A stretch of 64,000 bases of DNA, from NCBI RefSeq assembly GCF_024298765.1, contig NZ_CP101210.1, one strand, 5' to 3'. The position numbers and the translations under genes are program-made. The notes beneath the pieces are model-generated. The model was given only the letters and a program-made list of their open reading frames with translations, did no database searches and was not told the DNA's origin. Position 1 is the stretch's first letter; each line of letters begins with the position of its first letter. Positions 1 through 12,426 of this stretch are shown one piece after another. The stretch comes from Escherichia coli (lineage in GTDB: Bacteria; Pseudomonadota; Gammaproteobacteria; Enterobacterales; Enterobacteriaceae).

Positions 1-489
1 TGGAGGTTCTCACATCAGAAAGGACATCAACATACTGAGCAGAGAAGACTTTTAGATGGTAAAGCAAATGCGCTAGCAGGGCGAGTACATTGTCGATATT
101 GCGACTCAGGTTGGTTATTCTGAGCGAACTTGTGCCGGCAGACAGTCTGAAACCGCAGCCACTTATTCTTCCGGACCACAGGTAATCATATATGGCAAAC
201 TGTAATACAGTCTCTTGTACTGAAAAACAGAATCTGTATTCATATCAGCACAAGGGACCACCAAATCCCGGCAGCATTCCTTACGTCAGTTATCCCGCAT
301 CACCCTGTGAGTGAGTTTTTTTATGAGGTTACTTTTTCATTGAATATAAATAATGAATAACCGCAGATTCTGATAATCCTCCTCCAAGGAACAATCAGGT
401 AAACAGTAAATACATCAGTTAATACCATTTTGTCTTTTTAACAAAGAAAATATTCATGGAGTAAGTTCCCGGGCATTTGCCCGGGATGA

Positions 490-1755
490 TTACTGTTTTA
501 ATGGATTATTAATCTTTGCATATTCAAATGGACTGATAAATTTTTCTCTGTTTGCATCCAGAAAATCGGCCCACCATTGTAGCATCAAGCGGCGTTCTTC
601 CAGATGCTCTGCTTTATGGATATACGCGGCCCTCACTGAATTTCGCTCCATGTGGCTCATCTGACGTTCAACAGCATCACGAGACCACAAACCTGATTCG
701 ACCAATGAACTACAGGCCATTGTTCGAAAGCCATGACCACAAACCTCTACTTTTGTATCATACCCCATGACCCGTAACGCACTATTTACCGTATTCTCAC
801 TCATGGGTTTGTGCGAATCGTGATCACCAATAAATATCAAGTCATGGGCCCCACAAAACTGTTTTATCTGCTTTAAAATTGCAAGAGCTTGCGTTGAAAG
901 AGGCACTAGATGCGTTGTACGCATTTTTGAGCCTCTATGGGAATGTTTCACTCCAGGAATAGGCTCCCGCTCCGGTGGGATAGTCCATATAGACGCTTCG
1001 AAATCGATCTCTGACCAACGAGCAAAACGCAGCTCACTGGACCGAATAAAGATCAGCAAAGAGAGTTCTGTCGCCCATCGGGTTAGCGGCCTACCAGTAT
1101 AGCTATCTATTTTTGTAAGCAACTCAGGGATGCGCTTTAATTCAAGCGCGGGACGATGTTGTCGATTACAGGAAGCAACCGCCCCAGCCATCTCTTGTGC
1201 CGGGTTATAATCAATTAACCCACTTTGCACTGCATAGCGCATGATGGCTGTAGTGCGCTGCTGAAGACGAGCGGCCACTTCAAGACGTCCAGACATTTCT
1301 ACGGCCTTAATGGGTGCTAATAAATCTCGAGTTTTTAACTCAGCGATATTACGTTCACCAAGCGCTGCAAAAAGATTATCTTCCAGACTTTTTAGCACAC
1401 GATGGGCGTGATCTTCAGACCACTTTTTATTGGTGCCATGCCACTCAATCGCGACTTCTTTAAAGGTTCGTGCTTTACTCTGTTCAACCTTATCATTTTT
1501 CTTTTTGTCTCCCGGATCGACGCCATTCGCAAGCAGCTTACGCGCCTCGTCACGACGTACTCTGGCATCCGCTAGTGTGATTTCAGGATAAACCCCAAGT
1601 GCCAGCATTTTTTGCTTTCCCTCATAACGGTACTGCAAACGCCAGTACTTAGAACCATTTGGATGGACAAGCAGATGCATACCGCCACCATCAGTCAGCT
1701 TATATTGCTTATCCGTTGGCTTGGCTGCTCTGACTTTGATATCTGTTAATGCCAT
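490..1755 (-). CDS. P4-family tyrosine integrase (site-specific recombinase) adjacent to tRNA-Leu
   Basis: 421-aa ORF with ATG start; N-terminal MALTDIKVRAAKPT...WRLQYRYEGK and C-terminal integrase-like region are typical of P4-type integrases; lies directly downstream of the leuX 3' end on the same strand. Confidence 0.88.
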   Translation of the reverse strand: MALTDIKVRAAKPTDKQYKLTDGGGMHLLVHPNGSKYWRLQYRYEGKQKMLALGVYPEITLADARVRRDEARKLLANGVDPGDKKKNDKVEQSKARTFKEVAIEWHGTNKKWSEDHAHRVLKSLEDNLFAALGERNIAELKTRDLLAPIKAVEMSGRLEVAARLQQRTTAIMRYAVQSGLIDYNPAQEMAGAVASCNRQHRPALELKRIPELLTKIDSYTGRPLTRWATELSLLIFIRSSELRFARWSEIDFEASIWTIPPEREPIPGVKHSHRGSKMRTTHLVPLSTQALAILKQIKQFCGAHDLIFIGDHDSHKPMSENTVNSALRVMGYDTKVEVCGHGFRTMACSSLVESGLWSRDAVERQMSHMERNSVRAAYIHKAEHLEERRLMLQWWADFLDANREKFISPFEYAKINNPLKQ

Positions 1756-1902
1756 GCGTATTCCCTCCCTGTTGGTACAAGCATTATCGAACCGGAAATA
1801 CCATCATCTGTACCAACATATGTTGGTAGATGTACGTTGATATCGGTTGACCTTGAGAGAGTTAATATAGCGGGAAAGGTAGATAAACACTGGATTTCAG
1901 GC

Positions 1903-1928
1903 ATAAAAAAAGACCTCAGTTGAGGTCT
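1903..1928 (-). terminator. Rho-independent terminator downstream of leuX
   Basis: Hairpin agacctcaactgaggtct followed by a T-run on the minus strand, immediately 3' of the tRNA. Confidence 0.65.
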
Positions 1929-1941
1929 ATTTACATACTTT

Positions 1942-2026
1942 TGGTGCCGAAGGCCGGACTCGAACCGGCACGTATTTCTACGGTTGATTTTGAATCAACT
2001 GCGTCTACCGATTTCGCCACTTCGGC
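1942..2026 (-). tRNA. leuX: tRNA-Leu (anticodon CAA)
   Basis: Reverse complement reads GCCGAAGTGGCGAAATCGGTAGACGCAGTTGATTCAAAATCAACCGTAGAAATACGTGCCGGTTCGAGTCCGGCCTTCGGCACCA; cloverleaf with CAA anticodon and 3' CCA. Confidence 0.95.
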
Positions 2027-2221
2027 ACTGAAGAGGTATGCGGAAAACGTTGTGGATTATACCTGTCGCACGCCACCATGCAAGCGCCAGCTTGCTCGCA
2101 CCTCGCTAAGTGCTGAAATTTTCAGCATTGCATACAGCGATGTGTAACCTTTGTCACACTCCAGGCACCCCGCCCTGCCATGCTCTACACTTCCCAGACA
2201 ACACCAGAGAAGGACCAAAAA

Positions 2222-3241
2222 ATGTCGATGATAAAAAGCTATGCCGCAAAAGAAGCGGGCGGCGAACTGGAAGTTTATGAGTACGATCCCGGTGAGCTGA
2301 AGCCACAAGATGTTGAAGTGCAGGTGGATTACTGCGGGATTTGTCATTCCGATCTGTCGATGATCGATAACGAATGGGGATTTTCACAATATCCACTGGT
2401 TGCCGGGCATGAGGTGATTGGTCGCGTGGTGGCGCTCGGGAGTGCCGCACAGGATAAAGGTTTGCAGGTCGGTCAGCGTGTCGGGATTGGCTGGACGGCA
2501 CGCAGCTGCGGGCATTGCGATGCCTGTATTAGCGGTAATCAGATCAACTGCGAGCAAGGTGCGGTGCCGACGATTATGAATCGCGGTGGCTTTGCCGAGA
2601 AGTTGCGTGCGGACTGGCAATGGGTGATTCCACTGCCAGAAAATATCGACATTGAATCTGCCGGACCGCTGTTGTGCGGCGGTATCACGGTCTTTAAACC
2701 GCTGTTGATGCACCATATCACTGCCACCAGCCGCGTTGGGGTAATTGGTATTGGCGGGCTGGGGCATATCGCTATAAAACTTCTGCACGCAATGGGATGC
2801 GAGGTGACAGCCTTTAGTTCTAATCCAGCGAAAGAGCAAGAAGTGCTGGCGATGGGTGCCGATAAAGTGGTGAATAGCCGCGATCCACAGGCACTGAAAG
2901 CACTGGCGGGGCAGTTTGATCTCATTATCAACACCGTCAACGTCAGCCTCGACTGGCAGCCTTATTTTGAGGCGCTGACGTATGGCGGTAATTTCCATAC
3001 GGTCGGTGCAGTTCTCACGCCCTTGCCGGTTCCGGCCTTTACGCTGATTGCGGGCGACCGCAGCGTCTCTGGCTCTGCTACTGGCACGCCTTATGAGTTG
3101 CGTAAGCTGATGCGCTTTGCCGCCCGCAGCAAGGTTGCGCCGACCACCGAACTGTTCCCGATGTCGAAAATTAACGACGCCATCCAGCATGTGCGGGATG
3201 GTAAGGCGCGTTATCGCGTGGTTCTGAAAGCCGACTTCTGA
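2222..3241 (+). CDS. ahr: Zn-dependent NADPH aldehyde reductase / alcohol dehydrogenase
   Basis: [26 protein letters not shown]...[10 protein letters not shown] zinc-ADH motif; 339 aa from the internal Met of ORF 2180..3241; synteny next to leuX. Confidence 0.92.
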
Positions 3242-3370
3242 TCCCTTTGCCGGGTGCCTGTCGCCCGGCACTTAAATCTCTTTGGAAGGCGTCTCGCAAT
3301 CTGCTGAATTTAGCGGTGAAGAGTGCGCAGCCGTTGCCTATACTCCAGGCAGGAAACTGGAGGAAATCTC

Positions 3371-4873
3371 ATGAGCGAACCCCTGTTAATTGCCCGCACG
3401 CCGGACACAGAACTTTTTTTACTGCCGGGAATGGCTAACCGTCACGGGCTGATTACTGGCGCAACGGGGACGGGTAAAACCGTTACGCTGCAAAAACTGG
3501 CAGAGTCTCTATCTGAAATCGGCGTGCCGGTGTTTATGGCCGATGTGAAAGGTGATTTAACGGGAGTAGCGGAGGAAGGTACTTCTTCGGAAAAACTGCT
3601 CGCAAGGCTTAAAAATATCGGCGTAAATGACTGGCAACCTCATGCTAATCCGGTGGTGGTGTGGGATATCTTTGGCGAGAAAGGCCATCCGGTGCGGGCG
3701 ACGGTTTCGGATCTTGGGCCGCTGTTGCTGGCACGACTGTTGAATCTCAACGATGTGCAATCTGGCGTGCTGAATATCATTTTCCGCATTGCTGACGATC
3801 AGGGATTGTTGCTGCTCGACTTTAAAGATTTGCGGGCGATTACCCAGTACATCGGCGATAACGCCAAATCCTTCCAGAATCAGTACGGAAATATCAGTAG
3901 CGCATCGGTTGGTGCCATCCAGCGCGGATTACTGTCGCTGGAACAGCAAGGCGCAGCACACTTCTTTGGTGAGCCGATGCTGGATATCAAAGACTGGATG
4001 CGCACCGATGCCAACGGTAAAGGCGTTATCAATATCCTCAGCGCCGAGAAACTTTATCAGATGCCGAAACTGTACGCCGCCAGCCTGCTGTGGATGCTTT
4101 CAGAGTTATATGAACAATTGCCTGAAGCGGGCGATCTGGAGAAACCAAAACTGGTGTTTTTCTTCGACGAAGCACATCTGCTGTTTAACGATGCACCGCA
4201 GGTACTGCTGGATAAGATTGAGCAGGTGATAAGGCTTATCCGCTCGAAAGGCGTGGGCGTCTGGTTCGTTTCGCAAAACCCGTCAGATATTCCGGATAAC
4301 GTGCTCGGGCAGCTCGGTAATCGCGTTCAACACGCTTTGCGGGCTTTTACGCCCAAAGATCAGAAAGCAGTAAAAGCTGCGGCGCAAACCATGCGGGCCA
4401 ATCCGGCGTTTGATACCGAAAAGGCAATCCAGGAACTGGGGATCGGCGAGGCGTTAATCTCGTTTCTCGATGCGAAAGGAAGCCCTTCAGTGGTGGAACG
4501 GGCGATGGTGATTGCCCCCTGTTCACGAATGGGGCCGGTGACGGAAGATGAGCGTAATGGCTTGATTAATCACTCCCCGGTGTATGGCAAGTACGAGGAT
4601 GACGTGGATCGGGAATCCGCCTATGAGATGTTGCAAAAAGGCTTTCAGGCCAGTACCGAGCAGCAAAATAATCCTCCCGCGAAAGGGAAAGAGGTGGCGG
4701 TGGATGACGGTATTCTTGGTGGATTGAAGGATATTTTGTTTGGCACTACCGGACCACGCGGCGGGAAGAAAGATGGTGTGGTGCAAACAATGGCGAAAAG
4801 CGCCGCCCGCCAGGTGACGAATCAGATTGTGCGTGGGATGTTGGGGAGTTTGCTGGGGGGGAGAAAAAGGTAA
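3371..4873 (+). CDS. yjgR: HerA-like P-loop ATPase, DUF853 family
   Basis: [37 protein letters not shown]alker A motif; 500 aa from the internal Met of ORF 3323..4873. Confidence 0.88.
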
Positions 4874-5033
4874 GTCAGGTGCGATTTGTCTTTGCCTGAT
4901 GCGACGCTGGCGCGCTTTATCATGCCTAAACTACTGCAATATATTGAATTTTCATGATTTTTCAGGCATGAACGAAGCACACTTTGCTAACAATAATAAA
5001 GGGAGCTTTCGCTCCCTTTATTCGTTCATCAGG

Positions 5034-6116
5034 TTACGATTTTCTCATTAACAGCCACAGGCTGATTAAGAAGAAGCTGGCGCTTGGCAGCAACGCGCCG
5101 ATAATCGGCGGGATGCCGTAAACCAATGTCAGCGGGCCGAAGATCTGGTCCAGTACGTAGAAGACAAAACCGAAGCTGATACCGGTGACCACACGCACGC
5201 CCATCGGTACGCTACGCAGTGGGCCAAAGATAAACGACAGCGCCATCAGCATCATCACCGCCACGGATAGAGGCTGGAAGATTTTGCTCCACATGTTGAG
5301 TTGATAACGTCCGGCATCCTGACCGCTCGACTTTAGATACTTCACATAGTTGTGCAAACCACTGATGGAGAGTGCATCCGGGTCCAGCGCCACCACGCCC
5401 AGTTTGTCTGGCGTGAGGTTGGTTTTCCAGGTGCCGCTCACCGTCTGCGAACCGGTGATCTGTTTCGGATTGGTCAGATCAGATTCATCAACCTGCGACA
5501 GACGCCAGACTTTATGTTCCGGGTCAAACTTCGCGGTAGCGGCATAGCGTACGGATTGCAGACGACGATTCTCGTTAAAGGCATAAATACTGATGCCACC
5601 TAACTCTTCGTCACCTTTAACCCGCTCAATGTAGACGAAGTTGTTGCCATCTTTCGCCCATAAGCCTTGCTGAGTGGAGAGTAACGAGCCGCCGTACATC
5701 GCCTGGGCACGGTAGTTACGCGCCATCTGCTCGCCCTGCGGCGCGACCCATTCACCAATCGCCATCGTCAGTAAGACCAGCGGAATGGCGGTTTTCATCA
5801 CCGACAGCGCCACCTGCATACGGGTAAAACCAGAAGCCTGCATCACCACCAGTTCGCTGCGCTGCGCCAGCATCCCAAGACCAAGCAACGCCCCAAGCAG
5901 AGCCGCCATCGGGAAGAAGATCTGCACATCTTTCGGCACGCTCAGCAAGGTATACATTCCTGCGCCTAACGCGTCGTAACTCCCCTGCCCGGCTTTTTTC
6001 AGCTGATCGACAAATTTGATAATGCCCGACAGCGACACCAGCATGAACAGCGTCATCATGATGGTGGTAAAAATAGTTTTACCGATATAGCGGTCAAGTA
6101 CGCCAAAAGGTTGCAT
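5034..6116 (-). CDS. lptG: LPS export ABC permease LptG
   Basis: MQPFGVLDRYIGKTIFTTIMMTLFMLVSL...; 360 aa; overlaps the lptF stop. Confidence 0.93.
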   Translation of the reverse strand: MQPFGVLDRYIGKTIFTTIMMTLFMLVSLSGIIKFVDQLKKAGQGSYDALGAGMYTLLSVPKDVQIFFPMAALLGALLGLGMLAQRSELVVMQASGFTRMQVALSVMKTAIPLVLLTMAIGEWVAPQGEQMARNYRAQAMYGGSLLSTQQGLWAKDGNNFVYIERVKGDEELGGISIYAFNENRRLQSVRYAATAKFDPEHKVWRLSQVDESDLTNPKQITGSQTVSGTWKTNLTPDKLGVVALDPDALSISGLHNYVKYLKSSGQDAGRYQLNMWSKIFQPLSVAVMMLMALSFIFGPLRSVPMGVRVVTGISFGFVFYVLDQIFGPLTLVYGIPPIIGALLPSASFFLISLWLLMRKS

Positions 6117-9571: not shown

Positions 9572-12426
9572 TGGAAAAGACATACAACCCACAAGATATC
9601 GAACAGCCGCTTTACGAGCACTGGGAAAAGCAGGGCTACTTTAAGCCTAATGGCGATGAAAGCCAGGAAAGTTTCTGCATCATGATCCCGCCGCCGAATG
9701 TCACCGGCAGTTTGCATATGGGTCACGCCTTCCAGCAAACCATCATGGATACCATGATCCGCTATCAGCGCATGCAGGGCAAAAACACCCTGTGGCAGGT
9801 CGGTACTGACCACGCCGGGATCGCTACCCAGATGGTCGTTGAGCGCAAGATTGCCGCAGAAGAAGGTAAAACCCGTCACGACTACGGCCGCGAAGCTTTC
9901 ATTGACAAAATCTGGGAATGGAAAGCGGAATCCGGCGGCACCATTACCCGTCAGATGCGCCGTCTCGGCAACTCCGTCGACTGGGAGCGTGAACGCTTCA
10001 CCATGGACGAAGGCCTGTCCAATGCGGTGAAAGAAGTTTTCGTTCGTCTGTATAAAGAAGACCTGATTTACCGTGGCAAACGCCTGGTAAACTGGGACCC
10101 GAAACTGCGTACCGCTATCTCTGACCTGGAAGTGGAAAACCGCGAATCGAAAGGTTCGATGTGGCACATCCGCTATCCGCTGGCTGACGGCGCGAAAACC
10201 GCAGACGGTAAAGATTATCTGGTGGTTGCGACCACTCGCCCGGAAACCCTGCTGGGCGATACCGGCGTGGCCGTTAACCCGGAAGATCCGCGTTACAAAG
10301 ATCTGATTGGCAAATATGTCATTCTACCGCTGGTTAACCGTCGTATTCCGATCGTTGGCGACGAACACGCCGACATGGAAAAAGGCACCGGCTGCGTGAA
10401 GATCACCCCAGCGCACGACTTTAACGACTATGAAGTCGGTAAACGTCACGCCCTGCCGATGATCAACATCCTGACCTTTGACGGCGATATCCGTGAAAGC
10501 GCCCAGGTGTTCGATACCAAAGGTAACGAATCTGACGTTTATTCCAGCGAAATCCCGGCAGAGTTCCAGAAACTGGAGCGTTTTGCTGCACGTAAAGCCG
10601 TCGTTGCTGCGGTTGACGCGCTCGGCCTGCTGGAAGAAATTAAACCGCACGACCTGACCGTTCCTTATGGCGACCGTGGTGGCGTGGTTATCGAACCGAT
10701 GCTGACCGACCAGTGGTACGTACGTGCCGATGTACTGGCGAAACCGGCAGTTGAAGCGGTTGAGAATGGCGACATTCAGTTCGTACCGAAGCAGTACGAA
10801 AACATGTATTTCTCCTGGATGCGCGATATTCAGGACTGGTGTATCTCTCGTCAGCTATGGTGGGGTCACCGTATCCCGGCATGGTATGACGAAGCGGGTA
10901 ATGTTTATGTTGGCCGCAACGAAGACGAAGTGCGCAAGGAAAATAACCTCGGTGCCGACGTTGCCCTGCGTCAGGACGAAGACGTTCTCGACACCTGGTT
11001 CTCTTCTGCGCTGTGGACCTTCTCTACCCTTGGCTGGCCGGAAAATACCGACGCACTGCGCCAGTTCCACCCAACCAGCGTGATGGTATCTGGTTTCGAC
11101 ATCATCTTCTTCTGGATTGCCCGCATGATCATGATGACTATGCACTTCATCAAAGATGAAAATGGCAAACCGCAGGTGCCGTTCCACACTGTTTACATGA
11201 CCGGTCTGATTCGTGACGACGAAGGCCAGAAGATGTCCAAATCCAAGGGTAACGTTATCGACCCGCTGGATATGGTTGACGGTATTTCGCTGCCAGAACT
11301 GCTGGAAAAACGTACCGGCAATATGATGCAGCCGCAGCTGGCGGACAAAATCCGTAAGCGCACCGAGAAACAGTTCCCGAACGGCATTAAGCCGCACGGC
11401 ACCGATGCCCTGCGCTTCACCCTGGCGGCGCTGGCGTCTACCGGTCGTGACATCAACTGGGATATGAAGCGCCTGGAAGGTTACCGTAACTTCTGTAACA
11501 AGCTGTGGAACGCCAGCCGCTTTGTGCTGATGAACACAGAAGATCAGGATTGCGGCTTCAACGGCGGCGAAATGACGCTATCGCTGGCGGACCGCTGGAT
11601 TCTGGCGGAGTTCAACCAGACCATCAAAGCGTACCGCGAAGCGCTGGACAGCTTCCGCTTCGATATCGCCGCAGGCATTTTGTATGAGTTCACCTGGAAC
11701 CAGTTCTGTGACTGGTATCTGGAGCTGACCAAGCCGGTAATGAACGGTGGAACAGAAGCCGAACTGCGCGGTACTCGCCATACGCTGGTGACTGTACTGG
11801 AAGGTCTGCTGCGCCTCGCGCATCCGATCATTCCGTTCATCACCGAAACCATCTGGCAGCGTGTGAAAGTACTTTGCGGTATCACTGCCGACACCATCAT
11901 GCTGCAACCGTTCCCGCAGTACGATGCATCTCAGGTTGATGAAGCCGCACTGGCTGATACCGAGTGGCTGAAGCAGGCGATCATTGCGGTACGTAACATC
12001 CGTGCAGAAATGAACATCGCGCCGGGCAAACCGCTGGAGCTGTTGCTTCGTGGTTGCAGCGCGGATGCAGAGCGTCGCGTAAATGAAAACCGTGGCTTCC
12101 TGCAAACGCTGGCGCGTCTGGAAAGCATCACCGTGCTGCCTGCCGATGACAAAGGTCCGGTTTCCGTTACCAAGATCATCGACGGCGCAGAGCTGCTGAT
12201 CCCGATGGCTGGCCTCATCAACAAAGAAGATGAGCTGGCGCGCCTGGCGAAAGAAGTGGCGAAGATCGAAGGTGAAATCAGCCGCATCGAGAACAAGCTG
12301 GCAAATGAAGGCTTTGTCGCCCGCGCACCGGAAGCGGTTATCGCGAAAGAGCGTGAGAAGCTGGAAGGTTATGCAGAAGCGAAAGCCAAGCTGATTGAAC
12401 AGCAGGCTGTTATCGCCGCACTGTAA
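9571..12426 (+). CDS. valS: Valine--tRNA ligase
   Basis: 951 aa; HIGH motif ([12 protein letters not shown]) and KMSKS motif; C-terminal coiled-coil. Confidence 0.97.

What the first reader, a model, noticed from the sequence alone, without database searches (positions are those of the whole stretch)
490..2026. P4-type integrase directly downstream of leuX marks an island whose body lies off the window start
A complete 421-aa P4-family tyrosine integrase sits on the same strand immediately 3' of tRNA-Leu(CAA). That is the canonical arrangement for tRNA-targeting genomic islands, and leuX is a known hotspot for them. Only the integrase end of the element is in the window; its cargo would extend to coordinates below 1.
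Basis: partly seen in the sequence, partly recalled or inferred. Interest (0 to 1): 0.5.

Follow-up and report, generated by a model that had tools for sequence, protein, structure and literature searches.

The report
Known leuX island integrase end

Summary
The feature is already known.

**What is in the window.** It is E. coli DNA with tRNA-Leu(CAA) (leuX) at 1942-2026 (-). An intact 421-aa tyrosine integrase lies at 490-1755 (-), 186 bp downstream.

**The integrase.**
- It has the arm-binding, core-binding and catalytic domains.
- It keeps R238, K277, H341, R344, H368 and Y378.
- It is 59.5% identical to phage P4 Int.
- It is 98% identical to the integrase of PAI II536, which has been shown experimentally to excise that island and reinsert it at leuX.

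**The island body (off-window).**
- Twelve complete genomes are 100% identical over window 1-2400.
- In all twelve, a direct repeat of the leuX 3' end (18 bp exact) lies 50-112 kb beyond window position 1.
- In the one genome annotated end to end, the cargo is pix fimbriae, pgtABCP, fec, a type I R-M system, cdiBAI, microcin H47, IS debris and a CP4-type module.

**The empty site.** 105 complete genomes carry exactly the predicted empty junction, which gives a textbook attB/attL/attR triad.

**Prior description.** An island with the same 20 kb next to int is published as GI12 of strain ECC-1470. K-12 intB is the same gene with a stop codon at position 19.

Whether the island is currently mobile was not tested.

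The parts
1942..2026 (-). leuX, tRNA-Leu(CAA), intact. Its 3' end is the integration target.
   Evidence: ARAGORN. It is identical to leuX of strains 536 and K-12.
1942..1965 (-). attL core, GTTCGAGTCCGGCCTTCGGCACCA on the tRNA strand. The exact 18-bp direct repeat shared with attR is 1948-1965. The 20-bp P4 attP core (GAGTCCGGCCTTCGGCACCA) corresponds to 1942-1961.
   Evidence: The 18-mer occurs once in the window, with 0 expected in shuffles. It occurs only at attL and attR in 142 kb of FDAARGOS_1287. attB/attL/attR alignment A4. Annotated P4 attP core.
1904..1928 (-). Intrinsic terminator hairpin for leuX (AGACCTCAACTGAGGTCT followed by T7). It lies on the island side of the core, so in the integrated state it is supplied by the island.
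   Evidence: Terminator scan. In the empty site a different but homologous hairpin (GAGTCGCTCAAGAGCGGC followed by T7) follows leuX (A4).
1770..1829 (-). Three copies of the putative arm-type Int-binding motif (C/G)TACCAACA at 1770-1778, 1811-1819 (inverted) and 1821-1829. This is the P' arm of the att site and overlaps the int promoter region.
   Evidence: Motif search. The same motif occurs as a tandem pair 51 nt from the attR core (L003:33370 and 33382). It is conserved in strain 536. P4 has a tandem arm pair 53 nt from its core. Binding is inferred, not shown.
490..1755 (-). int, an intact 421-aa P4-type tyrosine integrase annotated as RefSeq WP_001218930.1 in FDAARGOS_1287.
   Evidence: ORF. 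Three Pfam domains. 59.5% identity to P4 Int with R238/K277/H341/R344/H368/Y378 conserved. 98% identity (411/420) to the PAI II536 integrase.
1..489 (.). First 489 bp of island DNA beyond int: a non-coding, scarred spacer. Homology to PAI II536 ends at 477 and homology to K-12 ends at 250. In the identical-junction genome an IS110-family transposase remnant lies 59-291 bp beyond window position 1.
   Evidence: blastn break points. Annotation of FDAARGOS_1287.

Best explanation
Window 1-1965 is the attL/integrase end of a large (about 50-112 kb) mosaic genomic island inserted into the 3' end of the leuX tRNA gene of E. coli.

The island belongs to the PAI II536 / KpLE2 family of leuX islands. 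These share one integration module with variable cargo between its parts. The module consists of the P4-type int, the P' arm, the core, the distal P arm and a CP4-type distal gene block.

Proposed mechanism:
- The integrase binds arm-type repeats (TACCAACA) with its N-terminal domain.
- It binds the core in the last about 24 nt of leuX with its core-binding and catalytic domains.
- It exchanges strands through Tyr378.
- Integration of a circular island (attP) into attB duplicates the core. The island donates a new functional leuX 3' end plus a terminator. The original 3' end is displaced to the far end (attR).
- The reverse reaction between attL and attR would excise a circle, probably with help from an island-encoded AlpA-family protein.

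In this island type the displaced 3' end has decayed and is missing one base. Excision within the 18-bp identity would therefore leave a defective leuX.

What is shown: the anatomy, the repeats, the empty-site alleles, and the near-identity to an experimentally active integrase.

What is inferred: arm-site binding, the AlpA role, current activity in this strain, and the leuX defect after excision.
For: - tRNA and ORF coordinates.
- Integrase domains.
- P4 Int similarity and conserved catalytic residues.
- 98% identity to the PAI II536 Int, and about 97% identity over the leuX-int spacer.
- PAI II536 excises, forms circular intermediates, and integrates specifically into leuX through its P4-like integrase (PMC3202238; review PMC7545054).
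- Primers from that study match here: leu2 at window 1357, M803b at window 2144, PaiII_53rev at attR.
- The exact 18-bp repeat occurs only at the two island ends.
- A junction matching the attR query is present at 49.7-111.9 kb in all 12 identical-junction genomes.
- Accessory cargo is annotated between the repeats.
- The 20 kb next to int is conserved in 141 genomes, including ECC-1470, whose island GI12 is published (PMC5422975).
- The predicted empty junction is found contiguous in 105 genomes at 99.9% identity, and attB/attL/attR align as expected.
- The arm motif occurs on both arms with P4-like spacing.
- An AlpA-family gene lies in the island body.
Against: - The window holds only about 1.9 kb of the element. 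The cargo and attR are inferred from other genomes, whose island length varies from 50 to 112 kb, so the exact content in the source genome is unknown.
- Overall island G+C (48.2%) is not different from the flanking core (about 49%). Only the int region is locally lower.
- The island body is full of IS remnants. No transfer genes are annotated, so self-transfer is unlikely.
- The attR copy of the tRNA end is decayed. Empty-site genomes have an intact leuX, so they are not simple recent excisants of this island state.
Confidence: 0.9

Rival explanations
1. The island is effectively fixed. The integrase gene is intact, but the element no longer excises or transfers by site-specific recombination. 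The presence/absence pattern among related genomes would then come from homologous recombination of large chromosomal segments that carry the island or the empty site. This rival accepts the identity of the element and disputes only its current activity.
For: - The attR tRNA fragment is decayed (1 nt missing here, 2 nt in 536) while empty-site genomes have an intact leuX. The empty sites are therefore not recent excision products of this island state.
- IS remnants lie throughout the island and no transfer genes are annotated.
- In K-12 the same integrase has become a pseudogene (K19 stop), which shows that this module does decay in place.
- Genomes identical to the window over a 25-kb core stretch include both empty and occupied leuX sites. 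Flank-mediated replacement would explain this equally well.
Against: - The integrase is intact, with all catalytic residues.
- It is 98% identical to the PAI II536 enzyme. That enzyme works with the same 18-bp repeat and a similarly decayed attR, and deletion frequencies of 1e-5 to 1e-6 are reported for that island (PMC3202238).
- The arm motifs are conserved at both ends.
Confidence: 0.35
2. The element is a P4-type satellite prophage integrated at its natural site leuX, not a genomic island.
For: The integrase is 59.5% identical to P4 Int. The core overlaps the 20-bp P4 attP core exactly, and the arm-repeat spacing resembles that of P4.
Against: A tblastx of the complete 11.6-kb P4 genome against the 142 kb of island plus flanks in the identical-junction genome matches only int and the att core. 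There is no match to alpha primase, sid, delta, psu, cI, epsilon or gop. The element is 50-112 kb, against 11.6 kb for P4.
Confidence: 0.01
3. The integrase is an orphan remnant: in the source genome no island body remains beyond the window start.
For: The window itself shows only 489 bp beyond int, and that stretch is non-coding and scarred. Island length is variable among relatives.
Against: All 12 complete genomes with a 100%-identical 2.4-kb junction carry 49.7-111.9 kb between attL and attR. 141 genomes keep the same 20 kb next to int. The window differs from FDAARGOS_1287 by only 2 SNPs and 1 homopolymer base over 22.4 kb.
Confidence: 0.03
4. The element is a self-transmissible integrative conjugative element (ICE).
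For: It has an integrase, att sites, a large size and an AlpA-like gene.
Against: No relaxase, coupling protein or type IV secretion genes are annotated anywhere in the 88.6-kb island of FDAARGOS_1287. PAI II536, which has the same module, needed an engineered mob site and the helper plasmid RP4 for transfer (PMC3202238).
Confidence: 0.02

Closest known systems
PAI II536 (PAI-536-leuX) of uropathogenic E. coli 536 and its P4-like integrase
   Same: - The integrase is 98% identical (411/420).
- leuX is identical, and the leuX-int spacer with its arm motifs is about 97% identical.
- The 18-bp direct repeat is the same. The published primer PaiII_53rev equals the attR core plus 1 nt.
- The distal CP4-type module is the same: GTPase, DUF932, antirestriction, RadC, YeeU/CbtA.
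- The chromosomal flank out to the truncated nanS is the same.
- That integrase and site have been shown experimentally to mediate excision, circular intermediates and leuX-specific integration (PMC3202238).
   Different: The cargo differs. PAI II536 carries alpha-hemolysin, P-related fimbriae, Hek and CdiAB (PMC7545054). The island type seen here carries pix fimbriae, pgtABCP, fec, a type I R-M system, cdiBAI and microcin H47. Homology to 536 stops 13 bp after the int stop codon. The decayed attR tRNA fragment lacks 1 nt here and 2 nt in 536.
GI12 of bovine mastitis E. coli ECC-1470 (Leimbach et al. 2017, PMC5422975)
   Same: ECC-1470 holds the same 20.5 kb next to int (pix operon, pgtABCP, IS debris) at 99.2% identity and 100% coverage. 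The paper describes this island as carrying pixGFJDCHAB, pgtABCP and fecEDCBARI next to nanSMC and fim.
   Different: The paper draws the island borders more widely, including nan and fim, and does not name leuX in the passages found. Beyond the shared 20 kb, the cargo of ECC-1470 was not compared here.
E. coli K-12 intB / cryptic element KpLE2 (annotated PR-Y) at leuX
   Same: The site is the same, and the sequence from leuX through int is 97.5% identical (window 250-2400). The gene length is the same.
   Different: K-12 intB carries a nonsense codon at position 19 and is annotated as a pseudogene. The window copy is intact. In K-12 an IS2 follows at the point corresponding to window 250.
Satellite phage P4 integrase and attP
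   Same: The three-domain architecture is the same. Identity is 59.5% over 97% of the length. The same catalytic residues are present. The P4 attP core is the last 20 nt of leuX and overlaps the repeat found here. The tandem arm repeats lie about 51-53 nt from the core in both.
   Different: The arm-repeat sequence differs (TACCAACA here, a GGGGGCA-type 12-mer in P4). No other P4 gene is present. The element is 5-10 times larger and carries fitness and virulence cargo.

Membership tests
P4/CP4-type tyrosine integrases | N-terminal arm-type DNA-binding domain (Pfam Arm-DNA-bind_3) | tested here: met
   PF13356, residues 3-87, E = 1.3e-28. Residues 1-94 match the solved arm domain 3ju0 at 7e-38.
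P4/CP4-type tyrosine integrases | Central core-binding domain followed by a C-terminal tyrosine recombinase catalytic domain | tested here: met
   PF22022, residues 98-192, E = 1.9e-26. PF00589, residues 207-383, E = 8.8e-19.
P4/CP4-type tyrosine integrases | Catalytic R-K-H-R-H-Y set intact | tested here: met
   R238, K277, H341, R344, H368 and Y378 are invariant in the alignment with P4 Int (A2). Assignment of these positions to box I and box II follows established motif knowledge; no structure was used.
P4/CP4-type tyrosine integrases | Full-length sequence relationship to P4 Int | tested here: met
   59.5% identity over 97% of the protein, E = 9e-162.
P4/CP4-type tyrosine integrases | Recombinase activity on its att sites | not testable with these tools
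   Only indirect evidence: the 98%-identical PAI II536 integrase is active and leuX-specific (PMC3202238).
tRNA-gene-inserted genomic or pathogenicity island (PAI II536 type, leuX) | Insertion at the 3' end of an intact tRNA gene, with int adjacent on the same strand | tested here: met
   leuX at 1942-2026 (-), int at 490-1755 (-), with a 186-bp spacer.
tRNA-gene-inserted genomic or pathogenicity island (PAI II536 type, leuX) | Direct repeat of the tRNA 3' end at the distal border (attR) | tested here: met
   This cannot be tested in the window itself. It is met in all 12 complete genomes with a 100%-identical junction: the attR query, which contains the 18-bp exact repeat, matches at 99.9-100% and 49.7-111.9 kb away in the same orientation. 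The repeat itself was read directly in FDAARGOS_1287.
tRNA-gene-inserted genomic or pathogenicity island (PAI II536 type, leuX) | Unoccupied attB alleles with the precise junction exist in the species | tested here: met
   105 of 5426 complete genomes hold the predicted empty junction contiguously at 99.9% identity. L008 was inspected and aligned.
tRNA-gene-inserted genomic or pathogenicity island (PAI II536 type, leuX) | Accessory, mosaic cargo with mobility-gene debris between the repeats | tested here: met
   pix, pgt, fec, type I R-M, cdiBAI, mch, a CP4-type module, and IS1/IS2/IS3/IS21/IS30/IS66/IS110 remnants are annotated in FDAARGOS_1287.
tRNA-gene-inserted genomic or pathogenicity island (PAI II536 type, leuX) | G+C content deviating from the core genome | tested here: not met
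   The whole island is 48.2% G+C and the flanking core is 48.7-49.0%. Only the int/att end is locally lower: 37-48% in window 1-2200 against 50-58% in 2200-6000. This is a frequent accompanying feature of such islands, not a strictly defining one.
tRNA-gene-inserted genomic or pathogenicity island (PAI II536 type, leuX) | Excision as a circular intermediate | not testable with these tools
   This needs PCR or sequencing reads from the strain.
P4-like satellite prophage | P4 replication and helper-exploitation genes (alpha, sid, delta, psu, cI, epsilon) | tested here: not met
   tblastx of the full P4 genome against 142 kb of island plus flanks matches only int and the att core at E <= 1e-3.
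Integrative conjugative element | Relaxase, coupling protein and type IV secretion genes | tested here: not met
   None is annotated in the 88.6-kb island of FDAARGOS_1287. This rests on annotation only; no profile search of every ORF was run.

The most novel reading that the evidence does not exclude
In this lineage, where genomes identical to the window over 25 kb of core include both empty and occupied leuX sites, the roughly 90-kb pix/pgt/fec/R-M/CDI/microcin H47 island could be a recent and still excision-competent acquisition. Because its attR tRNA fragment has lost one base, it could also act as a self-stabilising element: any cell that excises it would lose functional tRNA5-Leu.
Probability: 0.3. 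Interest if true: 0.25.

Novelty: already known. Interest (0 to 1): 0.1.

Why it matters
It matters little beyond annotation. The result fixes the island boundary in the window precisely, at the leuX core 1942-1965. It identifies the integrase as the experimentally characterised PAI II536 / K-12 intB type. It predicts what lies beyond the window start: about 50-112 kb of fitness, virulence and defence cargo.

Two practical points follow:
- The published leuX flanking primers M803b and M805c should report occupancy in this strain. M803b matches the window exactly; M805c matches the distal flank with one mismatch.
- Loss of the island by site-specific excision is predicted to damage leuX, as my own background knowledge says happens in strain 536.

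No open question becomes newly testable.

Tried and rejected
- **NCBIfam.** The only hit is the domain model NF007246 (PRK09692), at 260.6 bits against a curated cut-off of 434. The protein is therefore not named by that model. I did not use it for classification.
- **Solved structures.** Only isolated N-terminal and core-binding domains of CP4-like integrases are solved. No catalytic-domain structure matched by sequence, so the catalytic residues were assigned from the P4 alignment and motif knowledge instead.
- **Literature.** A search for leuX + ECC-1470 + genomic island found nothing. PMC400636 (Middendorf 2004) and PMC3675907 (Hannan 2008) are not held. The statement that PAI II536 excision truncates leuX therefore rests on three things: my own background knowledge (Blum 1994, Ritter 1995); the remark in PMC3202238 that reintegration restores the complete tRNA gene; and the 2-nt-deleted attR fragment I read in strain 536.
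- **G+C deviation.** It did not hold as an island signature for the whole element.
- **P4 satellite prophage, ICE and orphan-integrase readings.** All three were considered and rejected.
- **Promoter scan.** It gave no promoter for int or leuX above the chance expectation.
- **Inverted repeat CCCGGGCATTTGCCCGGG at 468-485.** It sits just after the int stop codon but has no T-run, and the scan did not call it a terminator.

Full report
**1. The observation**

The window contains one tRNA gene, tRNA-Leu(CAA), at 1942-2026 on the minus strand. A 421-aa ATG-initiated ORF lies at 490-1755 on the same strand, 186 bp 3' of the tRNA. The ORF has the complete architecture of a P4/CP4-type integrase:
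- Arm-DNA-bind_3, residues 3-87
- Phage_int_M, residues 98-192
- Phage_integrase, residues 207-383

It is 59.5% identical to phage P4 Int over 97% of its length. In the pairwise alignment R238, K277, H341, R344, H368 and Y378 are all conserved. From established motif knowledge these are the box I/box II catalytic set of tyrosine recombinases.

**2. Where the window comes from**

The right-hand side of the window is E. coli core chromosome: ahr, yjgR, lptGF, pepA, holC, valS ... pyrBI. So the tRNA is leuX.

Twelve complete E. coli genomes are 100% identical to window 1-2400. One of them, FDAARGOS_1287, differs from the window by two SNPs and one homopolymer base over the shared 22.4 kb.

**3. 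What lies beyond window position 1**

In FDAARGOS_1287 the DNA beyond the integrase is accessory. In order, it carries:
- an IS110-family remnant
- an EAL-domain gene
- a Pap-like chaperone-usher operon (pix)
- pgtABCP
- IS21, IS66, IS3, IS30 and IS1 debris
- fecIRABCDE
- a type I restriction-modification system
- cdiBAI
- the microcin H47 cluster
- Gp2-like genes
- an AlpA-family gene (Pfam Phage_AlpA, 2.6e-10)
- a CP4-type block: GTPase, DUF932, antirestriction, RadC, CbeA/CbtA
- IS2

The 20.5 kb next to int is conserved at 99% identity or better and at least 98% coverage in all 30 listed genomes, and 141 complete genomes hold at least 80% of it. One of them is the mastitis strain ECC-1470. 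Its island GI12 is published as carrying pixGFJDCHAB, pgtABCP and fecEDCBARI next to nanSMC and fim (PMC5422975).

**4. The distal attachment site**

I searched the 142 kb of FDAARGOS_1287 with the leuX region. There is one further exact copy of CGAAGGCCGGACTCGAAC (window 1948-1965), in the same orientation, at L003:33299-33316. The 18-mer is unique in the window, with none expected by chance.

Read on the tRNA strand, the distal copy is a displaced leuX 3' end: GTTCGAGTCCGGCCTTCG-CACCA, with one base missing. It is followed by its own terminator hairpin.

From core to core the island is 88.6 kb in FDAARGOS_1287. In all 12 identical-junction genomes the attR query matches at 99.9-100% identity in the same orientation, at 49.7-111.9 kb. 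The cargo size is therefore variable, and the exact content in the source genome cannot be fixed from the window.

**5. Empty-site test**

I built the junction expected if the island were absent: the flank beyond attR, then the core, then the rest of leuX and ahr. 105 of 5426 complete genomes contain it contiguously at 99.9% identity. It is one base longer than my chimera, which is the G missing from attR.

In one such genome (13P477T) leuX is intact. It is followed directly by the GAGTCGCTCAAGAGCGGC terminator, a hypothetical gene, a phosphorothioated-DNA-binding endonuclease, an HNH endonuclease, a truncated nanS, and nanM/nanC. The three-way alignment is a textbook attB/attL/attR triad.

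Several genomes are 100% identical to window 39001-64000 yet differ in occupancy:
- Empty site: D10, APEC O2-211, MSHS 133, G12
- Island junction: GPEC1035, GPEC1209, GPEC1210

So occupancy varies among very close relatives.

**6. Relation to characterised systems**

The integrase is 98% identical (411/420) to that of PAI II536 of uropathogenic strain 536. The leuX-int spacer is about 97% identical.

The distal end of PAI II536 has the same 18-bp repeat, the same CP4-type block and the same chromosomal flank.

Primers from the PAI II536 mobilisation study match here. leu2 lies inside this int, M803b beside leuX, and PaiII_53rev on the attR core. M805c matches the flank beyond attR with one mismatch.

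That study and the work it cites show three things (PMC3202238; PMC7545054):
- PAI II536 is excised by its own P4-like integrase.
- It forms circular intermediates.

Homology to strain 536 ends 13 bp after the int stop codon. The two islands therefore share the integration module and differ in cargo.

K-12 intB is the same gene, 97.5% identical in DNA, but with a stop at codon 19. This int DNA is present at 80% coverage or more in 1760 of 5426 complete genomes. leuX islands are catalogued in many strains (PMC7545054).

**7. Mechanism**

The P4 attP core annotated in NC_001609 (GAGTCCGGCCTTCGGCACCA) is the last 20 nt of leuX and overlaps the repeat found here.

A short motif, (C/G)TACCAACA, occurs three times between the core and int (window 1770-1829). 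It occurs twice in tandem 51 nt from the attR core. P4 has a tandem arm pair 53 nt from its core. I infer these are the arm-type sites bound by the N-terminal domain.

Integration of a circular island would place an island-borne leuX 3' end and terminator (window 1904-1928) next to the tRNA body. It would also displace the original end to attR.

The attR fragment lacks one base here and two bases in strain 536. Excision within the 18-bp identity should therefore leave a defective leuX. This agrees with the reported restoration of leuX on reintegration in 536-21. It also agrees with my background knowledge of the leuX defect in that mutant.

It follows that the natural empty-site genomes, which have an intact leuX, are not recent excisants of this island state. 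Whether the polymorphism arose by site-specific gain or by homologous replacement of flanks is open.

**8. Rivals**

- **P4 satellite prophage: excluded.** The whole P4 genome matches only int and the core.
- **ICE: unsupported.** No transfer genes are annotated, and PAI II536 needed RP4 and an engineered mob site for transfer.
- **Orphan integrase: unlikely.** All identical-junction genomes keep 50-112 kb of island.
- **Fixed island.** The only serious open question is whether the island is still active or effectively fixed.

G+C content does not mark the island as a whole: 48.2% against about 49% for the flanks. Only the int end is locally lower.

**9. Verdict**

The feature is a known integration module bordering a known, published type of leuX island. 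Interest is low.

Noticed in passing
window 3241-3371 (between ahr and yjgR): The idnK/idnDOTR (L-idonate, GntII) genes lie between ahr and yjgR in strains 536 and K-12 but are absent here; ahr is followed directly by yjgR.
   Followed up: no
window about 20790-20796 (pyrL / pyrBI attenuator): The T-run after the attenuator hairpin has 7 T in the window and 8 T in the otherwise near-identical FDAARGOS_1287. This could be a real variant or a homopolymer sequencing error. The only other differences over 22.4 kb are SNPs at 10651 and 11983.
   Followed up: partly
window 16052-17778 (-), by correspondence with L001:36052-37778: yjgL is annotated as a frameshifted pseudogene in the near-identical genome FDAARGOS_1287. 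This was not checked in the window itself.
   Followed up: no
off-window: L003:27866-33298; L008:2167-7000; L006:12420-17260: A 5.4-kb low-G+C (39.7%) block sits between the leuX attB/attR flank and a truncated nanS. It carries an HNH endonuclease, a phosphorothioated-DNA-binding restriction endonuclease and a 587-678-aa hypothetical protein. It is present in both occupied and empty-site genomes. It is therefore a separate, probably defence-related islet and not part of the leuX island.
   Followed up: partly
off-window: L003:33290-33325 and L006:12391-12420: The displaced leuX 3' fragment at attR lacks 1 nt in FDAARGOS_1287-type genomes and 2 nt in strain 536, relative to the intact end seen in empty-site genomes. 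The decay appears to be independent in the two, and excision would be expected to leave a defective tRNA gene.
   Followed up: partly
L007:2675-3940 (E. coli K-12 intB): K-12 intB is the same 421-codon gene as the window's integrase but has a nonsense codon at position 19. This explains its pseudogene annotation.
   Followed up: yes
window 1904-1928 versus L008:7480-7595: The terminator hairpin after leuX differs between occupied sites (AGACCTCAACTGAGGTCT) and empty sites (GAGTCGCTCAAGAGCGGC), although the surrounding sequence is homologous. The island therefore brings its own copy of the tRNA 3' end and terminator.
   Followed up: partly
window 468-485: A perfect inverted repeat, CCCGGGCATTTGCCCGGG, lies directly after the int stop codon. 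It has no T-run and the scan did not call it a terminator. Homology to PAI II536 ends inside it, at 477.
   Followed up: no
window 131-189: A 59-bp stretch is 88% identical to a site inside PAI II536 (L005:40752-40810, at the end of a phosphoethanolamine transferase gene). It is probably a scar of cargo rearrangement.
   Followed up: no
off-window: genomes listed: Among the 12 genomes with a 100%-identical leuX-int junction, the island length from core to core ranges from 49.7 kb (strain 181.1) to 111.9 kb (GPEC60-33-648). The cargo is being remodelled quickly, with IS gains and deletions.
   Followed up: partly
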